Of a stretch of 51,035 nucleotides of DNA, positions 1-47,096 are shown one piece after another. The notes under the pieces are model-generated. The model ran no database searches. It saw nothing but the letters and a program-made list of their open reading frames with translations, and was not told the DNA's origin. Numbering within the stretch: position 1 is the stretch's first letter; every line of letters starts with the position of its first letter. This DNA is from Sphaeroforma arctica JP610 (Eukaryota): positions 37,040 to 88,074 of the forward strand of contig NW_014040231.1 in assembly GCF_001186125.1 (NCBI RefSeq), read 5' to 3'. The position numbers were made by a program, and so were the translations under genes.

Positions 1-333
1 ATCTAGAGTATTTTTTTTCTTTTATTTTTTTCTAAAGATATGATTTTATGAGTCTCTCGGATTCGCCCCAACAAAACATACCATAGTTTCTCATAGAGCG
101 ACAACGAAACACTAAATAAAATCCCTTCGGCGAAAACAGTACTGAGAGGATTATATATAGGCAATGTCTCGGCCTCACAATCCCTCAGAGTATTGCTGTT
201 TTCACGAGGCATACCTAACTTTACCAAAAGACTCATTTCCTTTATTTACTTCGAATTTCACGACACTTAGACTTTACCTACGCGTTTAATTACTCTAAGG
301 CATTATTATCGCCTTGATAGACCGAATCCTACA
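1..333 (+). repeat. 3' part of a family-A gypsy LTR, cut by the window start
   Basis: Closely matches 23655-23967 (shared gagtctctcggattcgccc...gagaggattatatataggcaatgtc...gaccgaat) and ends in ...ACA at 333. Confidence 0.85.
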
Positions 334-12700: not shown

Positions 12701-15700
12701 TCAATAATAATTCTATTGAATTGCTCTGAATTAGTGTAGTGCTTAATGACCTGCGTTTCTGAGTCACGTATCTCATGGAGTACACTTTTTGACTTCTCTG
12801 TTGCGCCAGTGAAATTCAATAGATATCTCACAAGTGCTTAATACTGTCAAAGTGGCATAGCACTGCATTGCGGAATAAACTTTATAATGTCTTCTCAATT
12901 TTCCATTCTGAAGCAACTTTCTCTGTATTTGGTAACTTCTGAAATTCTGAAGTCTATAGTAGTTTAGATAGTGTAGGTTCATTGACTATCACCTAAGCGT
13001 AAACGCATGATCTCTAGCTCGCTAATGTACTGACTGATTTAGATATTGATAGCTGGGTCGTATCTCTTCCTGAGTTCTGAGTCCACTAGAGGCATGCGAC
13101 GTTCTGGTTACTGATCGTAAAGGCCTACTCTCATCGTGTGTAGACTCGCGATAGCTACAGGTGCTGTTTGTTCCATTTTGGCTACAAACCTGCTCGCCAG
13201 GACGTAGTTGCCTTGGCAAATGCCTTTGTCTGTTAATAAACCCATTGCTTATGCCTGTATGGGTACCCCACTAGGTGTTTGTTGGCTTGAGCTACCACCT
13301 GGGGTTGGCCCCCCTGCTGGACTGTCAGTCGGACCATTCGCGTCTTACGTCCCTCGCCACCTTACACCCTTGCTCTGGTTACTTTTGGCATCTTGAGTTG
13401 CCTGTGTTGATGTGTGTGTATCGCAGGTTCTCAGTAAAGTCCTGTGCTCTATCCGTACCGAATAAGCGATTCACACCCCTTTGTCTTTGTTGGTAGCTTC
13501 TGTAAAATAAAATAAAAATTTGATTTATCTGACGTACCTTTGCTGTTATCTCACTTTGCTGCACTTTCATGTGAAGTGTTTACCATTCTGTATTGTGTGT
13601 TGGCTTATTGTATTCCTTCCTGTGATTGTGAAAGTTTTTTGATGTTTGTTGGATAAGCTTATTTAGTCACGTGTGGACTTACTTGCGCTTATTCTGTCAT
13701 ATGTGATAATATTTTTTACACGTGATCGTCACCTGTGAAGTTCCGTCTTATCGAGTTCACTTGTGATGTTCGCTCTTATTGACGTCACGTGTATAGTATA
13801 CTACACTTATAGCCTGATTCGATTTAATGTGTCTTTATCCCGAACTGACTAATTGTCCTGTGTTATTGTGCCAGACATGTGTACTTGTTTGTCTTCCTTC
13901 ATGTGTTTACGCTCGTACCCTTGTATACTTGTTCATAGTGTCCTGTGTGCAAGTCTTTTTGCTGTATATGGTGGGATATCAACGTTTATATTTCTATAGA
14001 ATGTTCGTGTGTGAATGTATATTTTTGTGTGTAGCCCTTGCTTTTCACTCTTGTGTGGTGGTGCTGTTGAACTTAAACTTGATCACTGTACTTCCTTTCA
14101 ATGCCATTTGTTGCGGCCTGTGCCAGTAAGTGTTTCTCGTGATCTAGATGCCACCATATACGTTTCTTGATTGTTTTGGTACTCAGCGAACACAATCAAG
14201 TCGTTGTTGCCTGGTTTATATTTTATTACGGATTGGATTATTCCCCAAACGGTTGTCCCCCAAACCATCTTTATGCTTAAGTGTTGTCATAATTGATTTA
14301 AATGTCACAAACTACCTTTCTTGATTGGTTTTTTAGTATTCAGCATACTCAATCAGGTTGTTGTCGCTTTGTTTGTATATTGTTTTTAGAGTTTTAGTTT
14401 TATTATTCTAATTCAGTGTTGCAAATCTTGTGTTGGGTTCGATCTAATTCCCGGATACATTTGTCCACAATTTTCTGAAGTGCTTTGCGCCCTTTATCGT
14501 TTTCTGTGAGAACCCCTTGTTTTCCCCCACTGTCCGTGAAGATTATCTGTATAAATTTTTTTAATGATATTATGTGTCCACTGTAAAACTGTGTGTGCGG
14601 TGTGTTCTGAGGTGATTTCCTCTGACTACCGCTTTTTAGGTTGAGTTATCTATGTTGACTATGTTGTCTAGGCTTTGTGAATGTCCTGTGTTGTTTTTCA
14701 ACACTCTTTCACTGATGGCTACCTTTCATGGCACTCTTGCTCAGCCCTTCCGCTTGTAGTCTACGTCCTTACACTGCTTTCTATACGATTGTGGCGTGAA
14801 ATGTCTTCAGAGGTGATTTCCTCTGAAGACTCGTATTTGATCAAGTGTTCTGATTGCCTAGAGCTTAATAGTGTTAATATTTTTCCCGTGCACTCCCTTA
14901 CTCTATTCTAATTTTCATTCGTCTCAACCTTTTGCTAGTTGTTCCAATAATTGGATGTTAATTGTTCTTGCAGGTGATTTAACCTTCACATTTGTTCTTC
15001 ACCCAGTTATCTTGTGCCTGTGAGATTGATGAACGCTCTTACCTTCTATTGATTTTCTTTTGAATGATAACCTTCTAACCTCCTTATAGTGCCTTGATAG
15101 ATTAATGGTTGCTTTGTACAATTGATTATCTTAATGTCGTGCTAGGATGAATTTGAAGATATTCGTTTTGCTAGCCTCTTCTGTGTCCTACTTGCGAGTT
15201 CCTAAACCTCACCTATTTTGGCTAGGTTATTGTGCTGATATTCTATCGATAAATTAATGCTAAGGCTAGTGTCAGTTGATCTGAGGTTTCTCTCACTATT
15301 TTATGGGATGCGTATGTCCGAAAATCACTGTGACACTTATTCACCAATTTTCACACTTCACATGGGCCCCAACATAGATAATCATATCGCCTTGACAGTT
15401 TTTGTTGTTGTTGTTACGCCTTTACAGGTTGTAAGACACTTCTTGAAACTTCTCAAAAAATTGCCTTATTCTTATCCAATGGCAGTCGAGAACGTAGGCC
15501 AGTTACTTATCTGCTGCTTGTTTCCTTCTTCATTCTCTTATCTTCTGTCAGTTGATTGTTGTCCCTCAGCTTCTTGTTAGCCCCCTGGTTACTGTCTAGT
15601 CCCAACTCCTTCACTGTTTCTTCTTCCTTTTTTCGGATTAAAGCTAAATAAAGTAGACTATTCTAGGTGACCTCTTCATTTCATTCACTTATCGTTCTTA

Positions 15701-16084: not shown

Positions 16085-16335
16085 CAATGACTTTGTCGAG
16101 GACATCATGTATGAGTTCCCACGGTGGGTTTGCCCATACATATACTCCCTGCACTCACTTTAGTAGGAGCGCATTCTATTCTTTCGTGTAGTATTTATGT
16201 GTGTGTGCATTGTATGCCGATGCAAATATATCTACTGTGAACTTACCAACCTATATATAGAATATGGGGTATAACATCCAGTCTGTAGCTGATATGGTGA
16301 TGAGTATTTTTGTTTCCAAGGTGGTGTACTCGTAG
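16085..16335 (-). pseudogene. Isolated fragment of the family-B pol N6-adenine methyltransferase domain
   Basis: Translates GKFTVDIFASAYNAHTHKYYTKE*NALLLK*VQGVYVWANPPWELIHDVLDKVI, with NPPW at 16119-16130. Homologous to 21150-21410. Confidence 0.85.
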
Positions 16336-16339
16336 TTGA

Positions 16340-18934
16340 AATCTATAAGTTATTTATTTATTGGACTCATATCGAATCACACTCTGACTTTCTTGAACGA
16401 ACCATCAGAGTTATGTTGTTCAACAGATTGTAGCGCCAAGTTAACTGTTATTTGTTGATAGTTGATTACTACCACTTCATCTACTAACCACTTCTCAACT
16501 TGTTCTTTTACTACAGCTTCGTGACTCCAGGATACTTAGCTTCTCGTAGGACACTTCAGCTTGATAAAATCAACCCTGGTTAAGTCAAAACTGATGTACC
16601 TATCATTAAAACGGAACTTAGCCCGGTCAGCAATATAAATTTTATTATATACTAGAATAAGATCCATAATTTTACTTGCAAAGTCGGATATTAATGCCTT
16701 GACTGTGTCAGACGTTGGTACTTATCGTCTGATTGATTTTTAAAGCCCAGTCAGTAATCATAATTTTAATATTCACTAAAATAAGATCCATAATTCTACT
16801 TGCAAAGTTGGGTATAAATGCCTTGACTTGTCGTCAGATTGATCTTTTAATGAGTCAACGTTCATGTTTGGTAAACCAGTTACGGTTATACCTAGTGTGA
16901 GCAAATCGCTCATTCCGATGATAATGTCGTACTCTCAGCTTGAGTGGTGATATTTCTATCATCGGCCAGAGAGATTTTAACATCTGTAGCCATGCACGCT
17001 TTGAAGTCTTCTCATCTGCTAAAATAAGATGAGTGGTTTGCGTTCTACGTTCGATATCTTGCATTAAGGCAATGCGATCGGATATACATGAAATATCTGA
17101 ACCAGTATCAATCAGTGCACGTACTTTATTTCCATTGCAATATACATGGATTTTTACACGCTCATCTAAAGAGTCGTTGCATTTTCCTTGTAACGAATGT
17201 ACCCGGTAGTAGCTTCACTCCAACTCAATGTCGGGCTTCTTGTCGCAAGACTTCGCGTGATATACGTTTGTCTTTTCGAACTTATCGCATTTAGCGAGGT
17301 AGTGCTTACGAGTGAGTGCGTGTCTGTCATTCCAATAACCGTTAGGGGTCAGTTGGTATATGTCATACCCACACTTCTCGTCCGCACACTTCTTCACTTG
17401 CTTGTGCGGAGGTTCTTTCTCGGCACGCGCCTTCTTATCAGGTCGCGTGTTATGAACGGTCTCTCGTGGGCGTGTCGTAGCTCGCTCTTTGGAGGTCTGA
17501 CTGGATACTTATCCTTGGTCGGACTGATCGCGTAGTTTCTTAGTAGCCACCTTCTCCTTCGAGGTTACTGGATCGGCCGGGTACAGGTCCAATACAGTTT
17601 GATAAAACTAATTCCACGTGAAGCGAGTCAACGGAAACTTTGACTCGTGTCCATGATCCCGTTGTTAGCGTACTTGCGGCGAAGCTCGCTATACAACCAT
17701 TCACGATCGTTGCTGACAATGTTCATACATAATTTATGCATGGCCAACAACTCGTACCATCGCGGCATGTCGTCCTTATTAATGTCAGAGCGTTTCAGGT
17801 TGACGCCGAGCTTTAAAATGTAGCTCAATATGGTAAAGCTTGGCGCTGGGGCTGCCAAGATCGAACTCAGACCTTGGCTGCGCATGCCCTTACTTAATAT
17901 GGACATCACTAGCCAACAAACCTCTGGCCAATTACGGCAGTGATCCAGTTCGGCTAAGTGCTTCCGAAGGATCATAATAACTGGTCGTTCAGGATTGAAA
18001 GACTGTATAAGAGCAGATATCTACTGGTGTGGAGCGATGTCATTCGTCTCCAGCATTACTATAAAGGCATACAAGGTACGAGTCAAAGAATCGAGATCGT
18101 GATTATGGACGAACTCGGGGTTTTAATTTCTGGAGTCCCAGTTCGACTTAAGTCGACTGATCATTCCCTTGTACTTCTCTCAATATGGTAGAGATTGGCG
18201 CTGGGCTGCCAAGATCGAACTTAGACCTTGGCTGCGCATGTCCTTACTTAATATGGATATCACTAGCCAACAAACCTCTGGCCAATTACGGCAGTGATCC
18301 AGTTCGGCTGAGTGCTTCCGAAGGATCAGATAACTGGTCCTTCAAGATTGAAAGACTACATAAGAGCAGATATCTGTGTGGAGCGATGTCATTCGTCTGC
18401 AGCATTGCTGTAAATGTATACAAGGTACGAGTCAAAGAATTGAGATCGTGATTATGGACGAACTCGGGTTTTTGATTACTGGAGTCCCAGTTCGACTTCA
18501 ATCGACTGATCATCCCTTGGTACTTCTGGTCGTCACTGTGGTCAGTCTTGACCGCGTTGTGCCTGTAGCAGTTGATCGATACGCTTGTGTTCAATGGTGA
18601 TCATCTTGGTGTAGAAAATTACGTCATCTTTCATCTAGAGATCATGAGTGATCTCCAACAGAGTTGTGTAATCGTCGACTTCAACTCAGAAGATTGAAAT
18701 CTTCTGCAGGTTGGAACAGCACAGTTCGATTGACGCGATCTCCTTCAGTTAGCACCGAATCCATCGTCGATGGCTCGCGACGTTCATCACTATTGATTAT
18801 GATCGGTATAATAAGCGTGGGATTGCCTCGGGTGATAATTATTCGTCCCGTAGGCTTCGGCTATTGAAGTAGGGCATCCCCCCAGTCTGGAAGCTCCTCG
18901 GGAGTCTTCTTCCCTGCTTCGGTGTCTATATTAT
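16340..18934 (-). mobile_element. Internal fragment of gypsy element D (related to A): gag, protease, start of RT
   Basis: Reverse-complement homology to 24910-27150, including KYQGMISRLKSNWD, KCDKFEKTNVYHAKSC and SDGSFKKVRV. Contains a ~340-bp tandem duplication. Confidence 0.85.
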
Positions 18935-19222: not shown

Positions 19223-20969
19223 GCCCCCCAATTTTATGCTTCTTAGCCTGCGTAGGAGAAGAAAGTGACATCTTACAGTACTAGATTATCTAGAGGTTGG
19301 TGTTTGTATAAAGGGAAAAACTTGTCCCATAGGGGGCATAACATGAAAAACCTGCCACCATTATCTATTCTTACATACTACCTATCAATATTTCTATATT
19401 TATACTACGACGAGAGTTCTCTACCACGCTCATCGGAGTCAGTCTTGACCGGTACGCATCTCAACGGTGGCTCTACAGCCAGAGTATTTGGTCCTTGTCC
19501 TTCTGGTGTGTGGGGGGAGCATGCTTCAAGGCGAGAAAAATTGGAGTGTCCCGTGGTATCAGTGAGACTTGCATAGGTCCCCCGCTTCGTGCGCTTTCTA
19601 TTGCTCGCTGGACTTTCATCAGTGCTCATTTTAGGCTTCTTTGGCCTTGACTGCTTTCGTTTGCGTCGATGGCGTTGACGTTATGTTGTAACTCCCCATC
19701 TGTTCATTGCAGTAGGTTTCCTGGGTTCCACCTCCTCGGGTGGACGGCCTGTCGTCGAGTATCGAGGATAGTTGAGTTTCCTCGTTTGGTTGTACGTGAT
19801 TATTGGAAGTGAATGCTTCCGTAGTACTGGCTCTTTTCACAAGTCCAAGTAGCTCATCACTGACCGAGTCAGAATTTTCGGGGGGCTTTAGTCCCACCAA
19901 GGTTACAGTCAAATACCCATTGCTCTCCCTGCAAACTATTTTGTATGGTCCGCCACTAGTTGCAGTCAACTTGTTCATTTCATCTAGATAGCGGACCATC
20001 AACAATTTTCCCTTCCTGGAAGTGTACATACTTCTTTTGGTACTGCCGGTCGAATGATGCGCACATCTTCTCTTGATATTGCGCAGCAATACTATCTAGT
20101 TGTGGCCTGACGGCTTCTTCTAGATTATGCAGTGGCTTTTCCCAAGATACTGTTGTACTGGGTGCGGTCACTGGCTCGTTGTAGTCCGTGAGTTGATTCG
20201 GTCTGCGACCAAAGTACACATTAAATCGTAGTGACTTGTGCCTTCTTGATGCACGCAGATTATGGCCCATCTATACGAAGGGAAGTCGTGAACACCAGTT
20301 ACCTGGATTTTGCTCAACGAATTTCCGTAACAGTGGCATGAGGTCTCTGTGTGATCGCTCATTCGCGCCTAGGACTTTAGGTTGGTACGGCCAAGAGACT
20401 AGGTGTTGTGTTGGCGCTTGTTCAACATCTTTTGAAGTATGTTGTTAACATATTCAGTGCCTTGGTCAGTCTGTATGATTTGTAGGAATCCATGTTCACA
20501 CATGATTGGTACCAGCGTGTGTGCTATAGTAGCCGTTGATTTGTCCATCATTGGACGTAATATGACATATGATGAGTGTACATCTAGCCATACTAACACA
20601 TGTGAGTCCTCTGCTGGAATTCAATAGTGGTCATATGGTGTTCACTTGGACTCTGTCGCCTGGAAATGCGGATGTGATTGATTGTAAGGGATGGAATCCC
20701 TTTTTGTGTATCGTATCTTTGAGACATGGTATGTATCCTTCAATGAACTTGTGTACATGGTGTTGGATTTCAGGCCAATCATGTCCATCTGTTTGCAACT
20801 TGTTTACCGTTTCCTCAGGAGTGTAATGTCCCAAGTTGTTGTATTGCTCGATGATGTTGACACGTGTCTCGTATTCTGTTGTCTGCGGTGCATCTCCAGA
20901 GTGAACTGGTTGTGATGCTGCAACGTGTATGGCAGGTTGTTCCCGCGTTGAGTCTTCTCCTATCTTTGC

Positions 20970-21365
20970 TTCTAAGTTGACACCCCATGGGGCCTTGCCA
21001 CAAGCTTTCTTGCCTTCGCCGAGGAAAGTATTGTTTGTGATTTCCACTAGCATCGGGTCTTCTTCTAGTAAAGACGAATTTCATTTTTGGGAAGCCACGT
21101 TGCGTTGGGGTAGTATGGTACACATATCGTGATGCTGGTTGCGTCTTCAATGACTCTGTCCCGGACATCAGGTGTGAGTTCCCATGGTGGATTTGCCCAT
21201 GCATTAACTTCCTGCGTCCACTTTTGTTGTAGCGCATTCTGTTCTTTTTTGTAGTATTTATCTGTGTGTGCATTGTGTGTCGATGCAAACAGATCTACTG
21301 CGAATTTCCCAAACTGTCGTTCATCTTCTTGGTAGAATCTGGGGTGTAGCATCCAGTCTATAGCT
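20970..21365 (-). pseudogene. Dam-like N6-adenine DNA methyltransferase domain in pol of element B
   Basis: IDWMLHP...FGKFAVDLFASTHNA...NAL...W...NAWANPPW...ITICVPYYPNATW, with NPPW at 21182-21193. Same ORF as the RNase H tail (HVPGKNNQMANMLSR). Frameshifted near 21070. Confidence 0.85.
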
Positions 21366-23144
21366 GATATGGTTATGGGCATTTTAGTTTCCAAGGTTAT
21401 GTACTCTTGGCTGTTATGTGTTGTTTCGTTCGTTTCCTTTAATATCGTCGAGGTTTTAGTATCAAAATTATCTTCGTGTAGACGCGACAACATATTTGCC
21501 ATCTGGTTGTTCTTGCCTGGAACGTGTATGATGGAGAAGTGATGGAGGAATGTTTTTGCTATCCATTTGGCTAGCATTGGGTGTAACATCTGTTGACTGC
21601 TCATTTGCGTGAGCGCTTTGTGATCTGTTCACAGTGATATGTCCCCTCCTTTGATGTATTCGGAGAAATGTTGCAGGCTGTATACTAGGGCTAGTAGCTC
21701 CTTGGTATTTGTGCCATAGCGTTATTGTGCTGGATTCAAGCCTTTGGAGAAGTAGAGAATGTCTCTTCTAACCCCATCGATGACTTGATTTAAATATTCT
21801 CCCATGCCAAGGTCACTAGCGTTCATTATTTGAAACGGTACCCCATCAACAGGGTATGCTAGTGTCGCTGAACATGCGATAGCTTCTTCGAGTTCTTACC
21901 ACTTTTTTTTTTTGAGTTCCGGAGTCCACAACACAGATATGTGCTGGTCCATTTTTCCTTTCATTAGGTTTCGGAAGTGTTTTTGTTGTATGGGCAAAGT
22001 TGGGGACATGGTCGCGCACATTTGCCAGTCACATCGCTTTGTGCAGATCTCTTTTTGTTCTGGGTACTGGCCAGTCCATCATCCTTTTCTGTTTTTCAGG
22101 ATCTGCTTTGAGTCCCTGAGTGGTGACTTTCAAACCTAGAATGTTGACCATTTTCACCGCGAAGGCACACTTGTGATTGTGTCGAAAGTTTGCTCCATTC
22201 AGCCGTTTGATTACATCACGAACTGTCTTGCGGTGTTCTTCTTTAGTTACACTCGCAATGACTATGTCATCTACATACACCTACACTCTTTTGATGTCTA
22301 TGAGCAAATTTGCCATGACTCTCTGGCACTGTGTTGTGAGTAAGTGTAGTCCTAACGGTGCTGACTTGAATGAGTACTGCGCTCTTCTCGACGAGAACGT
22401 GAAGAAGTGTTGGCTTGCTTCGTCTACTAGAAAGGGGTGAGATCCTCCTGTGAGATCCAGCTTTGAAAAGAATTGTGCTCCTTGTAAATTGTGTAGTATT
22501 TACTTTATTTCAGGTAACACAAAATTATCTTGTTCTTATCGGCAATTGATTTCGCGTAAGTCTAGACATGTTTTTACTTTCTTGAGGAAACCTGTTTGGT
22601 CATGTTCACCTGTTGATAACAACGATCGATTTACTGCGGTAGGTGTAGTTCGTTTGTAAATGTGTCCACCTGCAAGCCACTTCCATACATTTTCATTCGT
22701 TTGCGGAATGTCTTTGTGAGGTACAATGTTGACTTTAGTATGCCTCATTTGTCTGCTAATAATTTTATCTGCAGGTACTGTGACTGTGGAGCCTGATAGG
22801 TTGCAATGTACGTCAGTGGGTATATACGCATTGGTATCTAAGAGGTATGTAAGCGACTCTCTGAATCCTTCTTGTTCGTGCTTAGGGTCTTCTTCATGTG
22901 GCGTGAAGAGTGATTCTCATTTCTCATCTGTTGGTATAAGTAGATTGATTAATCCTGCCATGTATATACCTAGGTATGGTAGAATGTCCATGCCGAGAAG
23001 TATTGGTGCCTTCTTGTCTGGTAGATCCAATACATCAAAGCACTGAGAGGCTTTCATACCTCCGTAATTAATGTCACAAACTTGGGTTGACCCCGTGCGT
23101 TGTATTCTTGCGTCTGTTGGTGCTAATTGTATATAGCCCGCAGT

Positions 23145-23967
23145 TGTAATAAGCCGGGCCTCCACATTAGACTCTATGTTATAAACGTACTCTTAAGCAG
23201 TACGCAAATTCCTAAACGTACTCTTAATAGTACGAGGAACTCAAGTTTCCTAAACATACTCTTAATAGTACGAGGAACTCAAGTTTCCTAAATGTGCTCT
23301 TAATAGCACGAGGAACTTAAGTTTCCTAAAATAGTTTTTAATGGTTTTATTAATTAATACCTTTTCCATTTATCATATCAGATATTTGGATGAGGCCATT
23401 AAAAGGCCTCAGTAAAATACCAAATATAAAGAGTTGGTCTAGTTCTATTAATAGAACTCTATTTTACTTTCCAATTTTATTTATATCTGAATATTTTGGT
23501 AGCAAGATGGCTCAACCAAATATATGTTTCTAGGGACTATTAACGTTACCTAGTTGATCCTCCGATAAGCCAACCAGATGTGCCAGTCTGATGAAGGCTA
23601 AGTCGGTAATTCTTGATAGTGGCAAGTTATTGGTTTAGACAATAACTAAGGACGTCAAGAGTATTTTCAATTTTTTTCTTCTTCTAACGATAAGATTTTA
23701 TGAGTCTCTCGGATTCGCCCCAGAATAGAGCGACAACGAAACACTAAATAAAGTCCCTTCGGCGGAAACAGTACTGAGAGGATTATATATAGGCAATGTC
23801 TCAGCCTCACAATCCCTCAGAGTATTGCTGTTTTCACGATGCAAACCTAACCTTATTAAACGTCTCATTTCGTTTATTTATATCGATATTTACACGATAC
23901 TAGAATTTACCTACGCATTTATTTATTCTAAGGCATTAGTATCGCCTTTATTAGACCGAATATTACA
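23145..23967 (+). repeat. 5' LTR of element A
   Basis: Bounded by TGTAATA...TATTACA inverted termini, TATA-like TATATATA at ~23784, direct repeat at 30586. Confidence 0.92.
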
Positions 23968-24103
23968 CATTTTAAAGTTAGCAAAAGTATTAAGTACTTA
24001 GACTACTTAAGCGTAAAGGTAGATTAACTACCACAACTTCTATTTTTTTTCTCTTGTCCAAGCTGGTCGTTAAGAGACAAGCTAGTAGTCATAAGTTAAA
24101 ATT

Positions 24104-26340
24104 ATGACCAAGAAAGACAACACTTCTTCTAAGAAGCGTAGAGCTGAAAAGAAGGAGATGGAGAAAGAAGCAGCTAGCGCTACCGCAGCTATTACTGCTC
24201 AGAAGCAACCGCCGCCGCTGCTGATGCGTTTAACCGCACTGTAGCCGAAGTACTTGCCTCTGACAATAATAGTCAAAAGGACAATGCTTCAGATAAGGAT
24301 GTAGCCACTCCGTTTAAGGAGACTACTCCCACTGACAGAGTCCGAGGGCCAACTATTGCCTCAACTTCAAAGCTTTCATTTACGAAGCCAAGAAGTGATA
24401 CAAGGGACACGTCTCAAGACGCCCCAACCATTTCTTCTGACGAAACTCAGAAAGGAAAGTCCCCAATTATAGGGGCGTCCCCAATTATAGGGGACAAGGA
24501 CAAATCTCAGAAGGAACCTATTATGGAACCAGAAGAGGAGGCAAGCTCAAGTAACAAACCCGAATCTACGTCCGAGACTACTAAGCCAACGCACATAAGT
24601 AAGTAAATTACTGAAAACGCTGATCTTAAGAATCAGTTAGCGACTATTTTGAAAGACTTGACTGTCGAACATGTAGATCAATTAATTAGATCAGGAAAAC
24701 ATCCACAGAACTTATGCAAACATGTTTCCCTGGGCATAACTGAAGCCCTACAGAAGTGGACAGAACGTCGACAGGCAATTACGCCCAAAGACTCAAGCTC
24801 TACGCCTGAGGCATATGATCCAGACGTGCTCAGCGTCTCTATACCTTATGAGGCACTACCTCCAGAAGTTCAGGCAAATTACTCGCCTGTTCTGACACCC
24901 GTCCTCGAGGGTATTATAGACCCAGAGGTAAGGAGATATACTCCGCCACTTGTACCAAATTGGGAAGATAATCGTCGGAAACCAGTTAAGACTGGGTATG
25001 TTATTCCGACGCATGGATCACCCAAGGTTATATTACCAACCGCTATCCGTGGAAGTAAGCACCGAAAGGCCTCTACCATGAACTTTACAAGGGGTAATAA
25101 ACACCCCCATATACGTGTGAACGATGTCGAGTTTAATCACTTCGACCGCACAGCTTTACACCAACCCGCAGAGGATTTCCACTTTGACGAAGTGACGGAC
25201 CTGAATATATCGGTCGACGACTATACCAATAAAATGGAAGTCGCCCATGTTGCGCATCATGCTGATGACGTCGCATACTATGCGAATATTATTACGATTA
25301 AGCAAAAGCACATAGACCAATTACTTCAGGCCCAACGTGGACAAGACCACAGGGACAACCAGAAGTACAAGGGACAGATCAGTCGACTTAAGTCGAACTG
25401 GGATGCCAACAGCAAGCAGGTCGAGTTTATAAACAACCATGACCTCAACACGCTAACTCGTACGCTTAATGCGTTTACGGTAATGCTGGAGACGAATGAT
25501 ATCGCTCCCCAGCAATGGATCTCTGCCTTAATGCAGACATTTGACCCTACAGATACCAGTTATCTGATCCTGTAGCGACACCAGCATGAGCTAGACACTT
25601 GTCGTGACTGGCCAGCTGTGCGTTGGTTGGTCACATACTTGTTAAGTAAGGATATGCGTAGCCCTGGGCTGAGTTCAATTTTAAATGAACCAGCTGAGAA
25701 CACGCCCATTCAGAGTTATATTCTGAAGTTAGACGCTGACCTGAAACGTCCCGATATAACAAAGGACAAGGCACAGCGATGGTACGAATTCCTAGTTATG
25801 CACGTGTTCTGTAAGAACATAAGGAATAACGACCGTGAGAGTCTGTACACCGAGTTGCGACGTAAACACGCGACTGAGGCTCGAGACAAGGGACATGAAA
25901 CAAAGTTTCATCTATCCCGACTTACATGGGAACAGTTTTATGATCCTGTATCCACTCTTTTTCCCGCACATCGATTAACATCGGAGGGAAAAGTGGCTGT
26001 TAAGAAGCCGCGGGAGCTCACCGATCACGGGTACGTATCCAGGCAGACCTCAAACGAGAGACCCCAACATACACGTGCTCGCGACTCCACTTTAACCACG
26101 CGACCCAATAAATGGGCACGCGCAGGAGCGAAGGACATGGAACCTCCATTTAAGGAGATTAAGAAATGTGCCGACGCCCAGTGTGAATATGACATGTACC
26201 AGTTAACCCCTAACGGTTATTGGAATGGTAGACATGCATCCACCTGTATACACTTTCTTACTAAGTGTGACAAGTGTGAGAAGACCAATGGCTATCACAC
26301 TAAGTCTTGTGACAGAAAGCCCAACATTAAGTTGGAGTGA
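24104..26340 (+). pseudogene. gag of element A (disrupted)
   Basis: Low-complexity N-terminus, ORFs 24649-25575 and 25618-26340, C-terminal CDKCEKTNGYHTKSC, and position between LTR and protease. Confidence 0.8.
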
Positions 26341-29300
26341 CGGTACTAACAGGTACAATCGTTACACAGACAATACAACGACTCTTTAGATGAGCGTGTA
26401 ATAATCCCTGTATATTGGAATGAAAATAAAATCCTTGCGTTGATTGATCCTGGTTCCGAAATATCATGTTTATCCGATCGCTTTGCATTAATGAAAGATA
26501 TCGAAAGAAGAAAATAAACAACTCATCTCATTTTAGCTGATGATAAAACTGCTAAGTGTGATACTATGGCCACAGATGTTCAAATCTCCCTGGCCGATGA
26601 TAGGAGTATCACTACTCAAGCTGTGATAGTTAAGATGTCACAGAAGTACGACATTATAGTCGGAATGAGTGATTTACTCACTCTAGATATAAACGTAACT
26701 GGCCTACTAACTAACATAGATCCATTAAAGGATCAATCAGACGATAAGTGTCTGAATCCATATAAGCCCCCGTCAGACACAGTCAAGGCATTAATACCTG
26801 ACTTTGCGGACAAAATCATGGATCTGATTCTTGTTAATAAGAAAATAAAGATCACAGATTGGGCAAAATTTCGCTTTAACGACGGATATGTCAGCCTTGA
26901 CTTAACCAAGGTAGACTTTACATAGTTAAAGTGTCCCTCAACGAACTATGTATCTTGGAGACACGAGGCTGTTGTAAAAGAACAAGTTGAGAAGTGGCTA
27001 GCAGATGGTGTGATAGAAATTAACTATCAACAAACGCCAGTTAACTTGGCACTGCTAGCCGTAGACCAACATAACTCTGACGGATCGTTTAAGAAAGTCA
27101 GAGTATGTTTAGATATGAGTCCAATAAATAAATTATTGCCGACTCATAGCTTCCACTTACCTCGTATTAACAAGCTACTGCGAAGGATGGAAGGTGCTAC
27201 AGTGTTTACAACTATAGACCTTACACAAGGATACCATCAAATGCAGGTATATGAACCCCACCGTAAATACTTTAGCTTTACGTGGAAAGGCAAACAATAC
27301 CGGTTCAGAGGTGCATCTTTCAGGTTACACTCTTTACCAGCATTCTTCCAACAAGTATTGGAAGAAATGTTTGCAGACATGCCTAACGTGCAAGTCTATA
27401 TAGATGACAGAGTCATTTTTTCTAAGACTACAGGCGAACACGCCGCATTAGTCAGACGAGTCCTTAAGAGACAAAGATTAACGAGAAGAAATGCCACTTC
27501 GCAATGAGCGAAATACAGCTCTTAGGCTACCATATATCTGGGGAAAGTAATAAGATCGACCCCGGTAAGGTAGAACACCTGTTAGATTGGCGAACACCAA
27601 CTACAAGAAGAGATGTTAACAGCATGTGTGGGTTTGTAAACTTCTTTTCAGATGGAGTACTACACTTAGCCGACTACCTTAAACCTTTTGGACACTTAAG
27701 ATGTCATAAAGGCAAACCAGGAGACTTGTGGACTAAATAGTGTGATGACGCATTTAAAGCGCTCAAACACGCAGTCCAACAAGCCCCAGTTGTACAAGGG
27801 CCAGTCGATGGCGTGCCGTTTGAAATAGCATTATATCAGGTTATAGATAACAAACCTAGATATATACAATTCTTTTGTCGAGCAATGAATGCTTCACAGT
27901 TGAATTATCCAACTGTTAAACAAGAGCTATTAGCCATAGTGGCAGCTCTAACACACTTTCAAGATTACTTATACAGAACAGCATTTACGCTGATGTGTAA
28001 TCAGAAATCTCTTCAATATATGAAAGAGATGAAACCCGACTCGCAATTACTTAGTCGCTGGCATGATATAATATCAAAGTTTCATTTTGATATAAGACAT
28101 CTGTCAGGAATACATAACCATTTACCGGATATGTTATCACGTATCGTACTGGACTTTAATAAATCCGTACATGAGTTACTAGCCACTGACTGGAAATGTA
28201 ATCCCAGGTGGTTTGAACTAGCTCAAAAGATATATGGGCCACATACCATAGATATGTTTGCTGCACATCATAATGCACAACTATCGAATTACAGGACTTT
28301 AAATCATCCTAAGGGAGACGCCTTTCAAATAGACCTCTCCCAACATAATGCGTGGGCTAATCCACCATGGCAGTTAATTGCCCAGCTATTACATAAAGCT
28401 ACCATCACGTTGTGTTGCCCATTACGGAGTAAAGATCCATGGCTCAATAAATTGATCAGCATGATACAATGCGAGCTAATATATATAGATAGGGAAGTAG
28501 ATACTTTCCTATATCAGGGTACCCGAGCCGTCCAGAAGACGCCCTGGAGACATATTATTATATGTCGTATAGGTCCCATTGAAACAACCAAATGGACCCC
28601 TTCTGAGACCTTCCTTAACAAGGTCAAAGAATCAGAGATTCCACTCTCTACCCAATTGAACGTTAAGCAGTTCAAAGGCAACACAGCATTTAACGTCTGT
28701 GCACAAGAAATACAATCTACTAATGACACTGTTAAGAAGCGTCAGTCTCTAGCTAGGACTCTGTTTAATAACATAAAGTCCAAGCACGAGGTCTTTCAAA
28801 CCTTATTTTTAAAGGGATTAATGAAAGACAATCGTGAAGCAAATACACATATAATGCGACTATTTAATAAGTCAGGTGTATCTAACGCACATGAGCGCGT
28901 TTATGACGCTCATGCAAAAGCAGAACAGGAGTCTGGAAACACTACAGACTTAGAGACCACGCAAGTGGATTCTCAACACCCTACCTTTATTCTGGAAGAG
29001 CAGAATGATAAAAACATTCTTGCTTGGCTGAAGCAAAATCATAAGCTGAAGCACCAAAACGTAGTAGAAGCACTTAAATATGCTAAGCGACATGGGATCG
29101 CGCACCCTAAGCTGGCAACTTTAGTTGACAGAGTATATCAGTCATGCACAGACTGTGATCTCAAATCAGATCCAGCGCTATGGTTTCGCACCGCTTAAGA
29201 GTGTGACTGAAGATGTTCCATGGCGCAGGGTCATCATTGATCTGGTTGACCTGCCCACGTCCGAGTACACAGGCGACCGTTACGTATGCCACTTCTTTGA

Positions 29301-30294
29301 TGTGGCGTCACGGTTTAACTTGCTCTATCCATTAAAGGATAAGAATACGCAGACCGTGGCATAATTATGTTGCCAAGTCTTTGCTGACCATGGGTGGCCG
29401 GGTATTATGTGCACTGATAACGGTAGTGAGTTCTGCGATGACGTTATGGAATCGCTAGTACTCGTATCAGGCATATGCCATAAGGGAGGTGTGCCATATA
29501 AACCGCAAACGCAAGGCGCGAATGAAACGCGCCATAGACGACTTAAGTTCGTCTTGCGTACTGCATTAACGGATGATGCAGATGATTGGCCGTACCACCT
29601 TAAGTGGGTACAAACACAGATGAACGAGTGTGCTGATCCGGTTACAGGAACTACACCCGCTCACTATTTTCGTGGCAGATATAGTGAGTTACAAATCCCC
29701 TTTAACAAGGACGAACCTGATCACCATGAGTTACCACGGTTAGAGAAGGTCTAACGTATTTATAACGTTGTATATCCTTGCTTGCGAGAAATACGCAATA
29801 CAGCCTTATTAAAAAGGCAAAAGCGTTGGAACACTACCAAAAAGATAGCAGAGTATCAGGTTGGTGACAGAGTTAACATCCGTCAACCAACGTATTCCGA
29901 TGCTACTGTATTAACATCTAAATGAATAGGTCCATATATAATCTCTGTAGCAGACACTAAAAGTGAAACGTACGAGGTAAATAACCCCGATGGTTCTAGT
30001 GCGCTTAATATAGGCACAAGTCGTATTCCGACTACAAAGATTATACTCGCAAGAAGACATGACTCTAATGCCCCTCTTGACCGTTCTGAAATTAAAAACA
30101 TTATATGGAGAACGGATAAGGGAGGCTATACATACTATCGTACACGCTTTATAGACGGTACAATAGCCGAGTTGACTTCAGATGCTTTCGATAATCAAGA
30201 CTATTCAAAAGCCTTTAATCGAAAATGGCGTAAACGCCTGCATAAGTCACAAGCTAAAAGAGATAGCATGTTTCCATCGTCTGAAGGAATGTAA
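26341..30294 (+). pseudogene. pol of element A: protease, RT, RNase H, adenine MTase, DDE integrase (disrupted)
   Basis: Motifs as listed for element A, spread over several ORF fragments separated by stops and frameshifts. Confidence 0.9.
28182..28575 (+). other. Dam-like N6-adenine DNA methyltransferase domain in pol of element A
   Basis: TDWKCNPRWF...YGPHTIDMFAAHHNA...DAFQIDL...NAWANPPW (NPPW 28359-28370), in one uninterrupted ORF (27813-29198) with RNase H and the integrase Zn finger. Confidence 0.88.
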
Positions 30295-30585
30295 GTTAAA
30301 ACTTATCCGCCTACAGCATTTATCCTGAGCCTTAATGCTCATCCTTCATATGTGCTTAAGACACTGAAGCGTAAGAAACGTCCAGTCGACCACCACGGAC
30401 CTACTGGACCTAAGCCCAAAACTCACAGGGTAACCGAGAACGCTTAACTTCTCCGCCTGAGAAACATTAACTATATGTTATGCTACTTAATGTTTTGACC
30501 CGTTTTTCGTTTCTCGCTTTTTGACCCATAATCAGCTTGAGTGAGCAGCTTGCTTCTCTTGGGTCTCAAAGCTGGGTGGGGGCTG

Positions 30586-31146
30586 TGTAATAAGCCGGGC
30601 CTCCACAATAGACTATGTTATAAACGTACGCTTAAGCAGTACGAGGAACTCAAGTTTCCTAAACTTACTCTTAGTAGTACGAGGAACTCAAGTTTTATTA
30701 AACGTGCTTTTAATAGCACGAGGTACTTAAGTTTCCTAAAATGGGTTTTAATGGTTTTATTAATTAATACCTTTTCCATTTAACATATCAGATATTTTGA
30801 TGAGGCCATTAAAAGGCCTCAGTAAAATACCAAACATAAAGAGTTGGTCTAGTTCTATTAATAAAACTTTATTTTACTTTCCAATTTTATTTGTATCTGA
30901 ATACTTCGGTAGCGAGATGGCTCAGCCGAATATAGGTTTCTAGGTACTGTTAACGTTACCTAGTTTATCCTCCGATAAGCCAACCAGATGTGCCAGTCTG
31001 ATAGAGGCTAAGTATTTTTTAAATTTTTTAATTTCCTTTTTTCTAAAGATAGGATTTTATGAGTCTCTCGGATTCGCCCCAGAATAGAGCGACAACGAAA
31101 CTAAATAAAATCTCTTCGGCGGAAACAGTACTGAGAGGATTATATA
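30586..31146 (+). repeat. 3' LTR of element A (last ~180 bp missing)
   Basis: Direct repeat of 23145-23790. Joins element B protease sequence directly after gagaggattatata. Confidence 0.9.
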
Positions 31147-33827
31147 GTTGCGCTCTGACGGAGAGATATAGTTCTGTTACTACACTCTTGTCCATGTATG
31201 AGCGTTGTGCGCCCGAGTCTACTAGTGTATTGTATGTATTGCCATTACTTTGTATGTCAATATGTAAGCGTTGGTCTCGTAGTGTGGGAAGTAAGGATAA
31301 AGGTTGGTAATCTATATCATTTGCATTTATTAACAACGTTTCTTCATCGGTATATACATTGAGCCTGTCAGCCAGGTTAATCATGTTTGCTTTCGCCCAC
31401 CAGTTATTTCAGTGCTCATCACCCTCTGTGATGTCTTCTACCTTGCCGGAGGTAATCAACAGTCTTGCTATTTGCATGTTCTTTTTTACCTGTTCTTCAG
31501 CCTGCTTGGCCTGTTTTGAAACCTACATGGTACATTTACTGAACCGGTGTGGGGCTGGCATCACTTTACAATAAGGACATGCACGCTCCTCATGCGCCCC
31601 TTTGTATTCTTGTACCTGTTTTGATTGGGTGCACCGTTGTCCGGTCTCTGTCATTTGTTCGTAGTAGTAGTGCTACTATGAAACTGGCCGTGGTTGGTTG
31701 TCTTTATATTGTGTTGCTTGCGCTGCTCTCTTAGCTGCTATCTTAGCATATGATCTCCCTGCACTTTGGATGTCGTTCTTATGTCCGCCTAAGTCATAGC
31801 GTGAAACACAATGTAATTCATATCCGATAAGTGACCCTCACTCCAATCAGGTTGTTTGTCTGCCTTGATGAGCGCATCCACTTGCGCTTGTTGTCCGTGG
31901 TACGTAAGTGCTTGGTATCTTTGGACCTTGAGAATTTGCAAGTGTATAGTTCATCTGTCTGATTTGCGGTAGCGCTCCTCTAACATCTTCATTGTTTTGT
32001 GCGCTCGCTCTGTGAGATCTTCAACGTTCAGTGTCTTATTCTGCATATCATTGAGAAAATTTTCTAACAGGTAGTCTACTGGATGGTGCATGAGTCTGTT
32101 AATAATGATTCTATTGAACTGTTCAGGATCTTTGAAATGCTTTTTTTGTCTGTGTTTCAGAGTCTCTGAAGTTATTGAGCATCTCCGTTGCATAAGTGGA
32201 ATCTAATAGATTTCTTACTAGTGCGGGGTACTGACACAGTGGCACGGACTTTCCTAAGAATAGGTTTCTACATTGTGTAGTGAATTCTATAATGTCTTCG
32301 CAATTTTCCACCACGAAGTAATTATTTTTAGGGAGCTTCGGAAATTCTGAAGTCCATAGTAGGTTTGCAAGGGCTGGTTCTTTTATCTGGTCGCCTAAGC
32401 GTGCACGCATGAGCTCTAACTCACTAATGTATTGACTTATTTGAATAAGTTCATCCTCTTCATCGTCACCACACTCGTAGATAGCTAAATCATATCGTCG
32501 TCTGAGTTCCTCATCCACGAGTGGCATGCGTCGTTCTGGCTGTTGGTCATGAATGTCTACTCTCATCTTGTGCAGAGTCGGTATAGGCATCGATACTGTT
32601 TGTTCCGGTTTGGACACAAATTTACTCACCAGGACGTGATTGCCTTGTCAGATGCGTTTGTCTATTTCCAACCGCATTGCTGAAGCTAATATGGGAACAC
32701 TTCCAGGTGTAGGCTGACTCGAGCCACTACCTGGGCTTGGCCCTTCTACTGGGCTGACATTTGCGCCATCCGTGCCATCACTTCCTTCTTCACCACCATA
32801 CACGCCTGCTCTGGTTGCCGTTGGCAGCTTGAGTTGTCTGTGATGGGTGTGTGGTATACTGCAGGTTATTAGTAAAGCCTCTTGTTATATTTTGTGCAAA
32901 TGCGCGCTTCACCCCCCTTGTCTTTGGTAATAATTTATATAAAATCAATAAAAATTGGAAGATATTTTACTTACTTTTGTATTGTTGTTGCTTTGCTGCA
33001 CTTCCGTGGGAAGTGTTGACCGTTCTGTATGGTACGGTAGCTTATTGCTTTCCTTCCTGTGATTGGAAGGATTTAAATAGTGTTTGTTAGTCAAGCTTAT
33101 TTCGTCACGTGTGGACTTACTTATGTTTATTTCGTCATGTGAGAACTTAATTTCTTGTGGGTGATCTCAAATGAGATGTTCGGTCCTGGTGACGTCACAT
33201 CTTGATGTGTCTATGTGAACGTCACCTTTTGATGTTCGTTCTTGTTCCGAACAGTGGCTATGTTAACTTCACCGCTTGATGTTAGATCCTGTGCCTAGTG
33301 AGATTGTATTTCTCCACTTTGTAACACTTATGCACGTTGTATTTCAAGGTCGTTGTGACTTTAATGTGATCTAACTGCAATCGTGTATGTCTACAACCCC
33401 ATCCAATTATTAGCATGTCTTGTTTCTCATGAACTATATTTTTACTGTTTGTTCTAAGCGTTGCCTCTGTTTGTTCGAGAGTGCCTATTCCTTGTTCGTG
33501 ATCATACTTGTGAGATGGATTGGAAATGGCTTGGAGTTTGATTTCAAAGTGTTTGTGCCTCAACACTAACTTTTATTTATCCGTTATTATGCGGATCTAT
33601 GCTAGACTGTGTTGGCACTATTTGTAACCTTGTCTTTTGCTTCGCATCACCTTGGCCAAACTGGCATCAGTTCTAGGCAGAGAAAGCCGCCAGAAATGTA
33701 CAACAATTAAGGTGGACGAAAACCAGAGGTTTGATTCATGACTGTACAGAACAACAGATTAGGTAAATAACTCGCGTCGTAATGGTACCTGTTCACATAG
33801 TATTGCCCATGCAGTATGGCGCACCAA

Positions 33828-38014: not shown

Positions 38015-41000
38015 TTATGACGTCTCACTACCCAGTTCTTTTCGCAAACTCTCTATTTGTCCGAGCACTGACGACTTCGATGTTCCTCCTTGCGCTTGAT
38101 ACTGCAGTATTATAGATATGAAATGAATTAGTGGTTTGTAGTGCCTTATAGACAAAACTATACAAGCTGTTAGATTATAGCTTGCGTCTAAAGCATTTAC
38201 AAAGAACAGTTGATCAGTTATGTGGCAATGATTGCAATAAGGTGGGGACGAACAAACTATGCATTGGAGTTGTATGGGAATATATAGATTTCTCGTCAAG
38301 TTACAACTGCATGAATTGACATTCTTTTCTCAGAACACTACGCAACCAAAATTGCCAACTAGCTACGCACGCAGATATTGATAAATTTATAAGAATGAAA
38401 GTGACGCGGAACGGTCTAAAATTCCAGTGCAAACAGCTGCGGCCACCCTTACCTGTTCGACGCTATTTTCAAAGTCCCACAGCGAAGTGACATCGTCTCC
38501 GAAGTGCTTGGACACCGTTCGCATATCTGAGTAGCATAGAAATTGAAGACATACTTATGTTTATACAACTTCGTGTGTACGGCGATTGCGGATGTTCATT
38601 AGATAACACGCTTTGTGGAGTAGGTAATTCAAACACATTCGCCAATAATAAACTTTGCTGAGTCAAAACGCCGTGCCTCACCTCTGAATATTCCAAAGTT
38701 CACGTATTCCTAATAGTTAATCACTACATTCAATGGTTGCAAAATCGCATTTAATAGTGGATCGATATTCCTACCGCCATACATCGTGCGCCATACAACG
38801 AGGCAGAGAAAAATGAACAATGCATTTATACCTTCTTTAGTCAACCCATCCATTTCACACTTCTTGTCTTCGGCCATTCGTACGACCTCTCCGGCCAATC
38901 CATGCGCCTCGCGGAACGGAACCTGAGCAAAAACCGATACACAGCGTCATGGAGGGGATGTCAGATACGAAACCACCAAATACAAGAGTTGTGGTGCTGA
39001 AACGCTACGACGGATCGCCAATGGCAGCCGAGAGATATAGTGGAAATGATAGCAAGGCAGTAAGTGAGAATGAGTCCACAGAAAGCCTACCCCAGAGCAA
39101 AACTACCAGAGATGACCTGTCACTCATACAACGCATAAATTAACTACCAGACAAGGAAAAGAGACTAAAGAAACCAAAAATCTACCGAGTTTCAGGGTAG
39201 AATGCCAAGCTCAGAATTATACATCAAGATACAGACGCGGTCTCCACTGTGGTAGCTATATACACATCTCGCCGTGTATGGGCTTGAAGGTATGGGCTTC
39301 AGACATTTACGCCACGAGTGCATGCTGAATAACGAATACACTCGTTGAGTGCACATACCCCTTTTCGGACTAAGTAGTACGCGACATCAGTGGACAGCAT
39401 CTCAATCGCTAGAGCGCTCTTCATCTTCACCTCATCGATTGTCAGCGTTGACATCACCCCCTCTATCGCATCGATGCATGTGAACAGACGCAGAAGTACG
39501 AGCGTGTGTACGAGAATTTTAGTTTTTATGATACTAAACCTTATGGATTGTACAGACTGGTAAGGCTGCGTATCAATTATAGTAAATCCCAACCGACTCC
39601 ACTGTATGTCTATTACAACGAGGGTGCCTACCCCCCCCCCCACTAAAGCCATAATAAGTAGGTATAAATACCTCAATCTGTACCTACAGCCAAGCACATA
39701 TCAATAAAGATATGAATAGGAGGGGTGGGCGTACCTAAAATTATTAGAGCCACCGTGTATTCTGACAACGGCCAAGCACACACACACACATACCAGCTAT
39801 TTGCAAGAGGCTTTCCAACGTGTCCGTAACGTTGAATAGAGCCTCCTTATCCTCTTGCATGTCTTTGTTGTAGGTACTGGGCAAGCCTTTCATGGTCATC
39901 ATGAATCCAGCGAGCTGCATACACACAAGGTTGCACAGGAGTTGGTGGGGGTCAGAACGCATGAAGTGTGCCATGCCAAACGTGATATTCATGTCCACAA
40001 GGTAGCGTGTTTCCATATGCAGTTGCAAATAATCGTACATGCACGTGAGACATAATTGCGCACACTCGCGCGCACATGCTGACAGGGATTGATTTCGCCG
40101 CGATCTACGTCAAATATGTATGGAGGTACACTTAAGATCGGTCCAGTTAGGTGCTCTCCAGTCAAATGATGGTGCAAATCAATACATAGTATATATACAC
40201 ACCGATCCACTCTTCTCTCGAACCCCATGTATAAAGGCACCTTCTACAAAGCTTGACAATTGAATGCGATCTTATGCCATGGTTATGATCAGCCTGGTAC
40301 AGTGCAAACAGTTCATCCGGCAACAGAAACTCACTCGAACATAGATATTAAGGGATCCAAACATTTAAACTGACTTTATCGCGATCCTATACCAATCCAA
40401 CCCCCCCCCCCCGCGGGTCGCCCTTATCCAAAGGGTCAATTAGATACTGAGTCACAGCCTGGACAACTCTATCTCAAATAGATAAATGTAGCCTACCTGA
40501 CCGAACACTCGACCGCTCTTGCCTCTGATGAGTTCCAAACTATCGGCGTTTCTTTTCTGTGGCATAAGCGAACTACCCGTACTGTGCGATGACGGGGAAG
40601 TGGGTGTAGGAATAAGACATAATCAATGCACTTGCTTGCGTCTATATTAGAGCCTTTGTGTATATAACATAAACTTGCACGCTCACGTCAGTGACCCTAT
40701 TTATGTAGCTTGTTAAGCTTCAAGAGGGGAAGGTGATGTACAAGTGATCAAAGTTTGCAACAGTACGGTGGTATGTATATCGTACACAATTTTTGTTGAA
40801 CGCATGCATACAGAAACTCCACATTCAAGCCTATTCGCTTTAAGGCGGCCAACGACTCTACAAATTTAGTATGAAATAATGTAAGACTCAATTACGCGCG
40901 CATATGTATCAGTTGCCAAAATCACGCGAGAGACGGCTCATCTACAGTCCAGGTTCAGCCAAGCTCACCCCGGGATACACAAGCTGTTTCTTAGGGACAT

Positions 41001-46784: not shown

Positions 46785-47064
46785 CTATAGCTCTTCATCA
46801 TCACTCAAGCCCAGTTCTGGGTATTCTCCACATACCACCCACTTGCATTTCACAAAACCGCCGTATTTGGGCTCACAGGTGAAGTACCTCTTGCCTTCCA
46901 CACTGCCATCGTTCTTGCCGTATGGTTCATCGTACTCTATGCCAGCCCAGATTCCTGATGGCAGATGGATTATAGCCACATCAACACTCGAATCCAGTAC
47001 AAGAATACGTAAATTCAACATGCTCATATATATTTATATATATACATATCCATATCCATACACG

Positions 47065-47096
<32 letters not shown>

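What the first reader, a model, noticed from the sequence alone, without database searches (positions are those of the whole stretch)
27813..29754. Gypsy LTR retrotransposon with an N6-adenine DNA methyltransferase fused between RNase H and DDE integrase
Seen: one ORF runs RNase H, then DW..P..F, DMFA..N, DAF, NPPW, then the integrase H-H-C-C, inside an element with direct TG..CA LTRs, a PPT and a D-D-E core. Known: NPP(Y/F/W) is the catalytic motif of amino (N6A/N4C) DNA methyltransferases, and a Dam-like domain after RNase H is typical of DIRS1-like elements, which use a tyrosine recombinase. I do not know it as a standard gypsy domain. Inference: an LTR lineage that may methylate its own cDNA or target, for example to mimic host 6mA or avoid silencing or nucleases.
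Basis: partly seen in the sequence, partly recalled or inferred. Interest (0 to 1): 0.9.

Follow-up and report, generated by a model that had tools for sequence, protein, structure and literature searches.

The report
Broken gypsy retrotransposon carrying Dam-like methyltransferase
This is a broken copy of a gypsy-type jumping gene in the single-celled animal relative Sphaeroforma that carries an adenine-methyltransferase-like domain between its RNase H and integrase; the design is real but was described in this same species in a 2026 preprint, and what the domain methylates (likely the element's own copying intermediates) is still untested.

Summary
ORF 27741-29198 reads RNase H, a Dam (PF05869) domain with DMFA..N and NPPW, then the integrase zinc finger. 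It lies in a 8.0-kb LTR element (23145-31144) whose RT groups with Ty3/gypsy, not DIRS-like RTs. One correction: the LTRs end TG..TA, not TG..CA. This copy is dead: stops, frameshifts, an RNase H deletion, LTRs 93% identical. Intact relatives have PR-RT-RH-Dam-INT in one ORF.

A neighbouring host exon is identical to a Sphaeroforma arctica protein, and the RT and Dam trees place the element with Abeoforma whisleri elements. It therefore belongs to the 'ichthyosporean DAM-LTR lineage' of bioRxiv 10.64898/2026.05.21.726589, which covers S. arctica. The scan also noted this design 23 times in at least 3 other genomes. Verdict: already known.

Two small additions. The domain's closest solved fold is the RNA cap methyltransferase PCIF1, ahead of T4 and E. 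coli Dam, which favours an RNA or RNA:DNA-hybrid substrate. The lineage also keeps a divergent C-terminal chromo-like domain that the preprint says it lacks; this is weak in the finding's own family.

The parts
23141..23144 (+). left copy of a probable 4-bp target-site duplication (CAGT; the right copy TAGT is at 31145-31148)
   Evidence: the uninterrupted paralogous site is near 11777. A 2-bp reading is not excluded.
23145..23787 (+). 5' LTR (TGTAAT...ATTATA) with a 38-bp internal tandem repeat
24178..26340 (+). gag-like region, broken by stops at 24604 and 25573, with a Cys/His cluster at its end; gag by position only, no Pfam hit
26389..26925 (+). aspartic protease region (IDPGS at about 26440), stops at 26515 and 26923
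26926..27471 (+). reverse transcriptase (YIDD at 27397), frameshift/deletion near 27472
   Evidence: RVT_1 E 1.1e-13
27741..28145 (+). RNase H, with an 11-residue deletion at about 27830 that removes its first acidic motif
   Evidence: other copies carry extra letters at 27830 (table 7)
28173..28595 (+). Dam-like / PCIF1-fold N6-adenine methyltransferase domain (DMFAAHHN 28251, NPPW 28359); 5 residues missing after NPPW
28596..29039 (+). poorly conserved linker
   Evidence: 33% identity between P0001 and P0002, against 69% for Dam
29040..29156 (+). integrase H-H-C-C zinc finger
   Evidence: Integrase_H2C2 weak in the intact relatives
29164..29925 (+). integrase D-D-E core, in a shifted frame, with stops at 29362, 29752 and 29923
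   Evidence: rve E 5.9e-9 in P0002
30064..30258 (+). degenerate chromo-like C-terminal module (weak in this family)
30574..30582 (+). short G-rich polypurine-tract-like run
30586..31144 (+). 3' LTR
19634..23140 (-). second, divergent Dam-bearing gypsy family (family B) into whose protease gene the element inserted; its Dam domain is at 21089-21376 and its 5' part continues at 31148-31387
   Evidence: P0003 residues 3-84 map to 31387-31148 and residues 80-1225 to 23156-19724

Best explanation
This is a decayed copy of a Ty3/gypsy LTR retrotransposon of the ichthyosporean DAM-LTR lineage in Sphaeroforma, whose intact relatives encode PR-RT-RNase H-Dam-integrase in one polyprotein, and whose Dam-like domain likely methylates adenines (N6) on the element's own RNA:DNA or single-stranded copying intermediates inside the particle rather than ordinary double-stranded DNA. 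The marked cDNA would then integrate and be maintained as 6mA by the host AMT1 system, keeping the new copy transcribed. Shown: architecture, gypsy placement, host, methyltransferase fold, conserved motifs, and that this copy is broken (identity about 95% sure). Inferred: catalysis, substrate, packaging with Pol, and hand-over to AMT1 (about 50%).
For: Architecture in intact P0001-P0003; best PDB sequence match Ty3-G, E 6e-63. RT tree: both window RTs sit in a 16-row clade (SH-aLRT 99) with two A. whisleri proteins, apart from 22 DIRS-like RTs (100). Dam tree: a 21-row clade (99/94) with A. whisleri proteins and an S. arctica protein. A host exon is 100% identical to S. arctica SARC_05238. NPP[W/F] is kept in 18 of 19 database members of the clade and in both window families. 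Dam identity between families matches or exceeds RT identity (69% against 61%; linker 33%). The model (pLDDT 94) matches PCIF1 best, Z 10.4, against T4 Dam 7.8 and E. coli Dam 7.5. [quoted passage not shown] The preprint reports more 6mA and more expression on DAM-LTRs than on other LTRs in S. arctica, and proposes the hybrid/AMT1 model.
Against: No activity has been shown: expression in dam- E. coli gave no 6mA (preprint). Iyer et al. 2016 consider DIRS1 MTase domains likely inactive (PMC4738411, passages). One intact family member, P0002, has CPPW instead of NPPW. The only DNA-level selection test possible here, between two decayed family-B Dam copies, gave dN/dS 0.70 (95% CI 0.33-1.57), not distinguishable from neutral, against 0.26 for RT. 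The 6mA enrichment is correlative, and host AMT1 acting on transcribed copies could explain it alone. By sequence the domain scores better to Dam (102 of 106 relatives) than to PCIF1 (28 of 106).
Confidence: 0.5

Rival explanations
1. The domain acts on RNA only, like PCIF1/CAPAM: it adds m6A or cap-adjacent m6Am to the element's genomic or messenger RNA, affecting stability, translation, packaging or escape from RNA surveillance. The 6mA on DAM-LTR DNA would then be a by-product of their being transcribed.
For: PCIF1 is the top structural match by two methods, followed by rRNA methyltransferases. PCIF1_WW matches 28 of 106 relatives at E <= 0.1, best 1.7e-7. Iyer et al. place DIRS1 MTases in the PCIF1 clade. 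It would explain the negative E. coli DNA assay. The preprint's main text never mentions PCIF1, CAPAM or m6A (0 occurrences).
Against: The match covers only about 150 of PCIF1's 480 residues, at 12-14% identity. A shared fold shows no function. Neither window copy nor P0001 hits PCIF1_WW.
Confidence: 0.2
2. The domain is catalytically inactive or weak and is kept as a nucleic-acid- or SAM-binding module, or as a structural spacer, in the Pol/integrase precursor.
For: Iyer et al.; the negative heterologous assay; CPPW in P0002; the dN/dS test is not distinguishable from neutral.
Against: The catalytic Asn-Pro-Pro-aromatic motif is kept in 18 of 19 clade members, and the D-x-F-A..N motif in at least 14 of 19 by a strict pattern, across families only about 40% identical.
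Confidence: 0.2
3. The arrangement is an accident: a DIRS fragment nested in a gypsy copy, or a mis-assembly.
For: The window is a tangle of nested, chimeric fragments; for example, a family-A RT piece is joined to a family-B Dam piece at about 16360.
Against: In-frame PR-RT-RH-Dam-INT polyproteins exist independently. RT and Dam trees are congruent for the clade. All 30 bins of pol, Dam included, are covered by contigs in 3 of 4 runs laid, and 29 of 30 in the fourth.
Confidence: 0.01

Closest known systems
Ichthyosporean DAM-LTR lineage (Fernandez-Moreno et al., bioRxiv 10.64898/2026.05.21.726589; whole main text read, supplements not available)
   Same: Ty3/gypsy RT with a DIRS-derived Dam domain, NPP motif, hosts S. 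arctica, A. whisleri and P. gemmata. The window's host matches S. arctica, and its RT and Dam group with A. whisleri elements.
   Different: The preprint says the lineage lacks chromodomains; I find a divergent chromo-like C-terminus, clear in most clade members and weak in this family. It does not discuss PCIF1. This copy is broken. I could not check whether this exact family is in their supplementary tables.
DIRS1-like retrotransposons with an MT domain (PMC3783388, passages; PMC4738411, passages)
   Same: RT-RNase H followed directly by a PF05869 domain; the domain is homologous.
   Different: DIRS lack a protease and a DDE integrase, use a tyrosine recombinase and have inverted repeats. 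This element has PR, a DDE integrase, direct LTRs and a gypsy RT.
PCIF1/CAPAM cap-specific adenosine N6-methyltransferase (PDB 6irx, 6irw)
   Same: Closest solved fold: Z 10.4, rmsd 2.7 over 134 residues; NPP-aromatic motif.
   Different: 12-14% identity; only about 150 of 480 residues correspond; it is a cellular RNA enzyme.
Phage Dam-type methyltransferases (PF05869, phrog_111)
   Same: Best sequence-profile matches: E 1.9e-6 and 7.1e-6 for the window domain.
   Different: Only the first half of the Pfam profile aligns; T4 and E. coli Dam structures score lower (Z 7.8, 7.5); representative eukaryotic domains gave no DNA methylation in E. coli (preprint).

Membership tests
Ty3/gypsy LTR retrotransposons | Pol order PR-RT-RH-INT with a DDE integrase | tested here: met
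Ty3/gypsy LTR retrotransposons | RT groups with gypsy RTs | tested here: met
   (SH-aLRT 100 split from DIRS-like rows; 33 of 115 Dam-free RT hits used as gypsy rows); best PDB hit Ty3-G
Ty3/gypsy LTR retrotransposons | Direct LTRs with a short target-site duplication and a PPT | tested here: met
   TSD has one mismatch, termini are TG..TA, PPT is short
Ty3/gypsy LTR retrotransposons | Primer-binding site (tRNA or self-priming) | tested here: inconclusive
   No TGG start after the 5' LTR and no self-complementary stretch of 7 or more bases in the LTR; no tRNA genes in the window to compare
Ichthyosporean DAM-LTR lineage | Dam (PF05869) domain within a gypsy Pol | tested here: met
Ichthyosporean DAM-LTR lineage | Ichthyosporean host (S. 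arctica, A. whisleri, P. gemmata) | tested here: met
   Host exon 100% identical over 56 aa to SARC_05238; two more exons match by eye
Ichthyosporean DAM-LTR lineage | Dam domains form one clade with A. whisleri and S. arctica elements | tested here: met
Ichthyosporean DAM-LTR lineage | No chromodomain (as stated in the preprint) | tested here: inconclusive
   No Pfam Chromo hit at the gathering score, but a divergent chromo-like tail scores 12-38 bits in 11 of 18 sequences tested; weak in this family
DIRS1-like retrotransposons | Tyrosine recombinase, no protease or DDE integrase, inverted terminal repeats | tested here: not met
Active N6-adenine methyltransferase | Class I fold with SAM-binding and NPP-aromatic motifs | tested here: met
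   (model is of intact P0001; the window copy lacks 5 residues)
Active N6-adenine methyltransferase | Methyl transfer to DNA or RNA | not testable with these tools
   The published E. coli assay on representative domains was negative

The most novel reading that the evidence does not exclude
The retrotransposon 'Dam' domain is a stripped-down PCIF1-type enzyme that methylates the element's own RNA or RNA:DNA hybrid during reverse transcription, not dsDNA. In ichthyosporeans it works together with an overlooked divergent chromodomain on the integrase, so these elements both write and read chromatin-type marks.
Probability: 0.3. Interest if true: 0.6.

Novelty: already known. Interest (0 to 1): 0.2.

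Why it matters
The class matters: retrotransposons that may write 6mA to look like active host genes. But it is already in a preprint that covers this species, and this copy is dead. What this analysis adds is a sharper, cheap test. The fold points to PCIF1, whose preferred substrates are RNA and RNA:DNA hybrids, which could explain why the published DNA assay failed. It also suggests that the lineage's 'no chromodomain' description needs a second look.

Tried and rejected
No whole genome is held for this window, so copies could not be counted or compared genome-wide, and selection on the Dam domain across family-A copies remains untested.

A sequence search of the Dam domain against PDB found nothing useful (best E 0.54). 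A profile search with alignment A4 was swamped by RT columns. The first structure model, from 5 sequences, was poor (pLDDT 46) and was not used.

The ESM Atlas returned unnamed eukaryotic clusters and one set with Dam in 11% of members; it added nothing.

Sequencing runs: no holder is on record as RNA. Two runs guessed to be RNA hold the sequence, but contigs cannot show expression, so no claim is made.

dN/dS between decayed window copies was inconclusive for Dam. ApT, CpG and GATC counts gave no hint of a target motif. No PBS was found.

The DIRS-like label in my trees rests on architecture alone (RT-RH-Dam at the C-terminus, no integrase).

Literature searches found no description of Dam in integrase-type LTR elements earlier than the 2026 preprint. 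PMC11673190 and the Chlamydomonas v6 preprint (passages) mention MT only in a figure legend or for DIRS. Repbase and GyDB could not be searched.

Rejected: DIRS membership, nested-fragment artefact, and TG..CA termini.

Full report
Observation. The frame 27741-29198 is open for 485 residues and matches RT_RNaseH (E 4.5e-19) and Dam PF05869 (E 1.2e-5; E 1.9e-6 and 28.1 bits, the gathering score, for 28161-28640 alone). The D-D-E core follows in another frame after a shift near 29160. Upstream lie protease and RT (RVT_1 E 1.1e-13).

Element limits. Direct repeats at 23145-23787 and 30586-31144 are 92.8% identical over 556 columns (K2P 0.076). Both start TGTAAT and end ATTATA, as does a third LTR end at the window start, so the termini are TG..TA and not TG..CA. 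The flanks CAGT and TAGT are a probable 4-bp target duplication; an uninterrupted paralogous site lies near 11777. The element inserted into the protease gene of a second, minus-strand gypsy family (family B) that also carries the Dam domain: P0003 residues 3-84 map right of the element and residues 80-1225 left of it.

State of this copy. It is dead. Pol has stops at 26515, 26923, 27738, 29196, 29362, 29752 and 29923, and frameshifts near 27472 and 29160. It has an 11-residue RNase H deletion and a 5-residue Dam deletion relative to P0002. In four public runs, tens of thousands of contigs (42,544 in X1) lie along the whole pol, Dam included. Nearly all of them read otherwise at the stops at 26515, 27738, 29362 and 29752, so those lesions are private to this copy of a many-copy family. 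Depth there is not a copy number.

Intact relatives. Three of 83 candidates matched the Dam region: P0001 (1376 aa, 69%), P0002 (1400 aa, 65%) and P0003 (1288 aa, 41%; family B). All read RT-RH-Dam-INT in one ORF, with Pfam protease hits in P0002 and P0003; P0001 starts inside its protease. The best PDB sequence match of P0002 is Ty3-G (E 6e-63). A profile search returned 6,328 representatives at E <= 0.001, of which 150 were listed. Of 30 scanned, many share the architecture, and three of the ten looked up are Abeoforma whisleri proteins; another near hit is an S. arctica protein. Of 117 further RT-RH relatives, 2 carry Dam.

Trees. The RT tree has 77 rows: 20 Dam-LTR, 33 of the 115 Dam-free hits, 22 DIRS-like by architecture, and 2 from the window (quick method). 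It separates the DIRS-like rows from the rest (100) and puts both window RTs in a 16-row all-Dam clade (99) with the A. whisleri proteins. The Dam tree (63 rows, careful method) recovers the same group (21 rows, 99/94). Deeper nodes are weak, so I do not infer a donor. NPP[W/F] is kept in 18 of 19 database members; P0002 has CPPW. Between P0001 and P0002 the domain is 69% identical, against RT 61%, RH 72% and the linker 33%. The only DNA test, between two decayed family-B copies, gave dN/dS 0.70 (CI 0.33-1.57) for Dam and 0.26 for RT, so it is inconclusive for Dam.

Host. An exon at 46788-46955 (minus strand) is 100% identical to Sphaeroforma arctica SARC_05238; the next true orthologue-like hit is 80%. 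Two more exons match the same protein by eye.

Fold. With 106 sequences, the P0001 domain models at pLDDT 94.2. Foldseek's only hits at E <= 0.001 (3 of them) are PCIF1/CAPAM. VIA-align ranks PCIF1 first (Z 10.4, rmsd 2.7, 134 residues), then RNA methyltransferases (Z 7.7-8.7), T4 Dam (7.8) and E. coli Dam (7.5). By sequence, 102 of 106 relatives hit Dam and 28 hit PCIF1_WW at E <= 0.1; all 5 members of the small alignment hit phage phrog_111. Iyer et al. (PMC4738411, passages) already place DIRS1 MTases in the PCIF1 clade and think them likely inactive. [quoted passage not shown]

C-terminus. A profile from chromodomains of related gypsy elements scored 12-38 bits on the tails of 11 of 18 clade sequences, including A. 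whisleri P0071 (22.9 bits); the best of 360 shuffles was 5.0. The finding's own family scored within the shuffled range: window 1.3, P0002 0.3, P0001 no hit at the tail. Against a profile from the clade's own tails, P0002 scored 13.5, P0001 6.4 and the window -0.8, with the best of 900 shuffles at 9.0. Profile-profile comparison gave 93.5% to the clade tails and 30.6% directly to chromodomains. The clade profile was selected with the chromo profile, so its 99% match to it is partly circular. I read this as a real but divergent chromo-like module in the lineage, degenerate in this family.

Prior art. Fernandez-Moreno et al. (bioRxiv 10.64898/2026.05.21.726589; whole main text read; supplements not available, and they may list this family) describe DAM-LTRs. 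Their ichthyosporean lineage occurs in P. gemmata, A. whisleri and S. arctica and has a conventional Ty3/gypsy organisation without chromodomains. They report more 6mA and more expression on DAM-LTRs in S. arctica, no 6mA gain in dam- E. coli, and a model of hybrid methylation followed by AMT1 maintenance. DIRS MT domains are long known (PMC3783388, passages). Searches found no earlier description for integrase-type elements. The scan's own notes hold 23 similar findings in at least 3 other genomes, and the 8 shown all point to the same preprint; I had found the preprint before seeing them. None are on this genome or this sequence.

Mechanism and verdict. Most likely the domain travels with Pol into the particle and N6-methylates adenines on the element's own RNA:DNA or single-stranded intermediates, seeding 6mA that host AMT1 keeps (inferred, about 0.5). 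RNA-only action (0.2) and a non-catalytic role (0.2) remain open. The finding is a correct reading of a real but already described architecture, in a species where it was described, on a dead copy. Novelty: already known. Interest 0.2.

Noticed in passing
protein P0201 (one Logan contig, host unknown): A copia-type polyprotein (gag, zinc knuckle, Dam with NPPW, protease, integrase, RVT_2) carrying the Dam domain. The preprint's main text has 0 occurrences of 'copia' and one search listed no such report, so this may be an undescribed capture.
   Followed up: partly
proteins P0082 and P0117: Integrase-type polyproteins with an Exo_endo_phos (APE-like) domain and Dam ahead of RT-RH-INT. 'Endonuclease' does not occur in the preprint's main text.
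   Followed up: partly
proteins P0164 and P0181: RNase H-Dam followed by a weak Tudor-like hit.
   Followed up: no
window 16086-18929 (-): Decayed family-A copy whose RT start is joined, in frame, to a family-B Dam fragment at about 16360; a chimeric or deleted nest.
   Followed up: partly
window 9719-13747 (-): Second family-B copy, uninterrupted at the site where family A inserted; it breaks off inside RNase H and has internal duplications.
   Followed up: partly
window 1-333 (+) and 5485-5973 (-): A further family-A LTR end with its 5' leader, and a protease fragment.
   Followed up: no
window about 2100-4600 (+): Broken ORFs that look like a copia-type integrase and RT by recalled motifs; not scanned.
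   Followed up: no
window about 38700-43500 (-): Intron-rich host gene that looks like argininosuccinate lyase by recalled motifs; not scanned.
   Followed up: no
window 46785-48500 (-): Tubulin-folding cofactor B-like CAP-Gly gene, identical to S. arctica SARC_05238 in the exon searched.
   Followed up: yes
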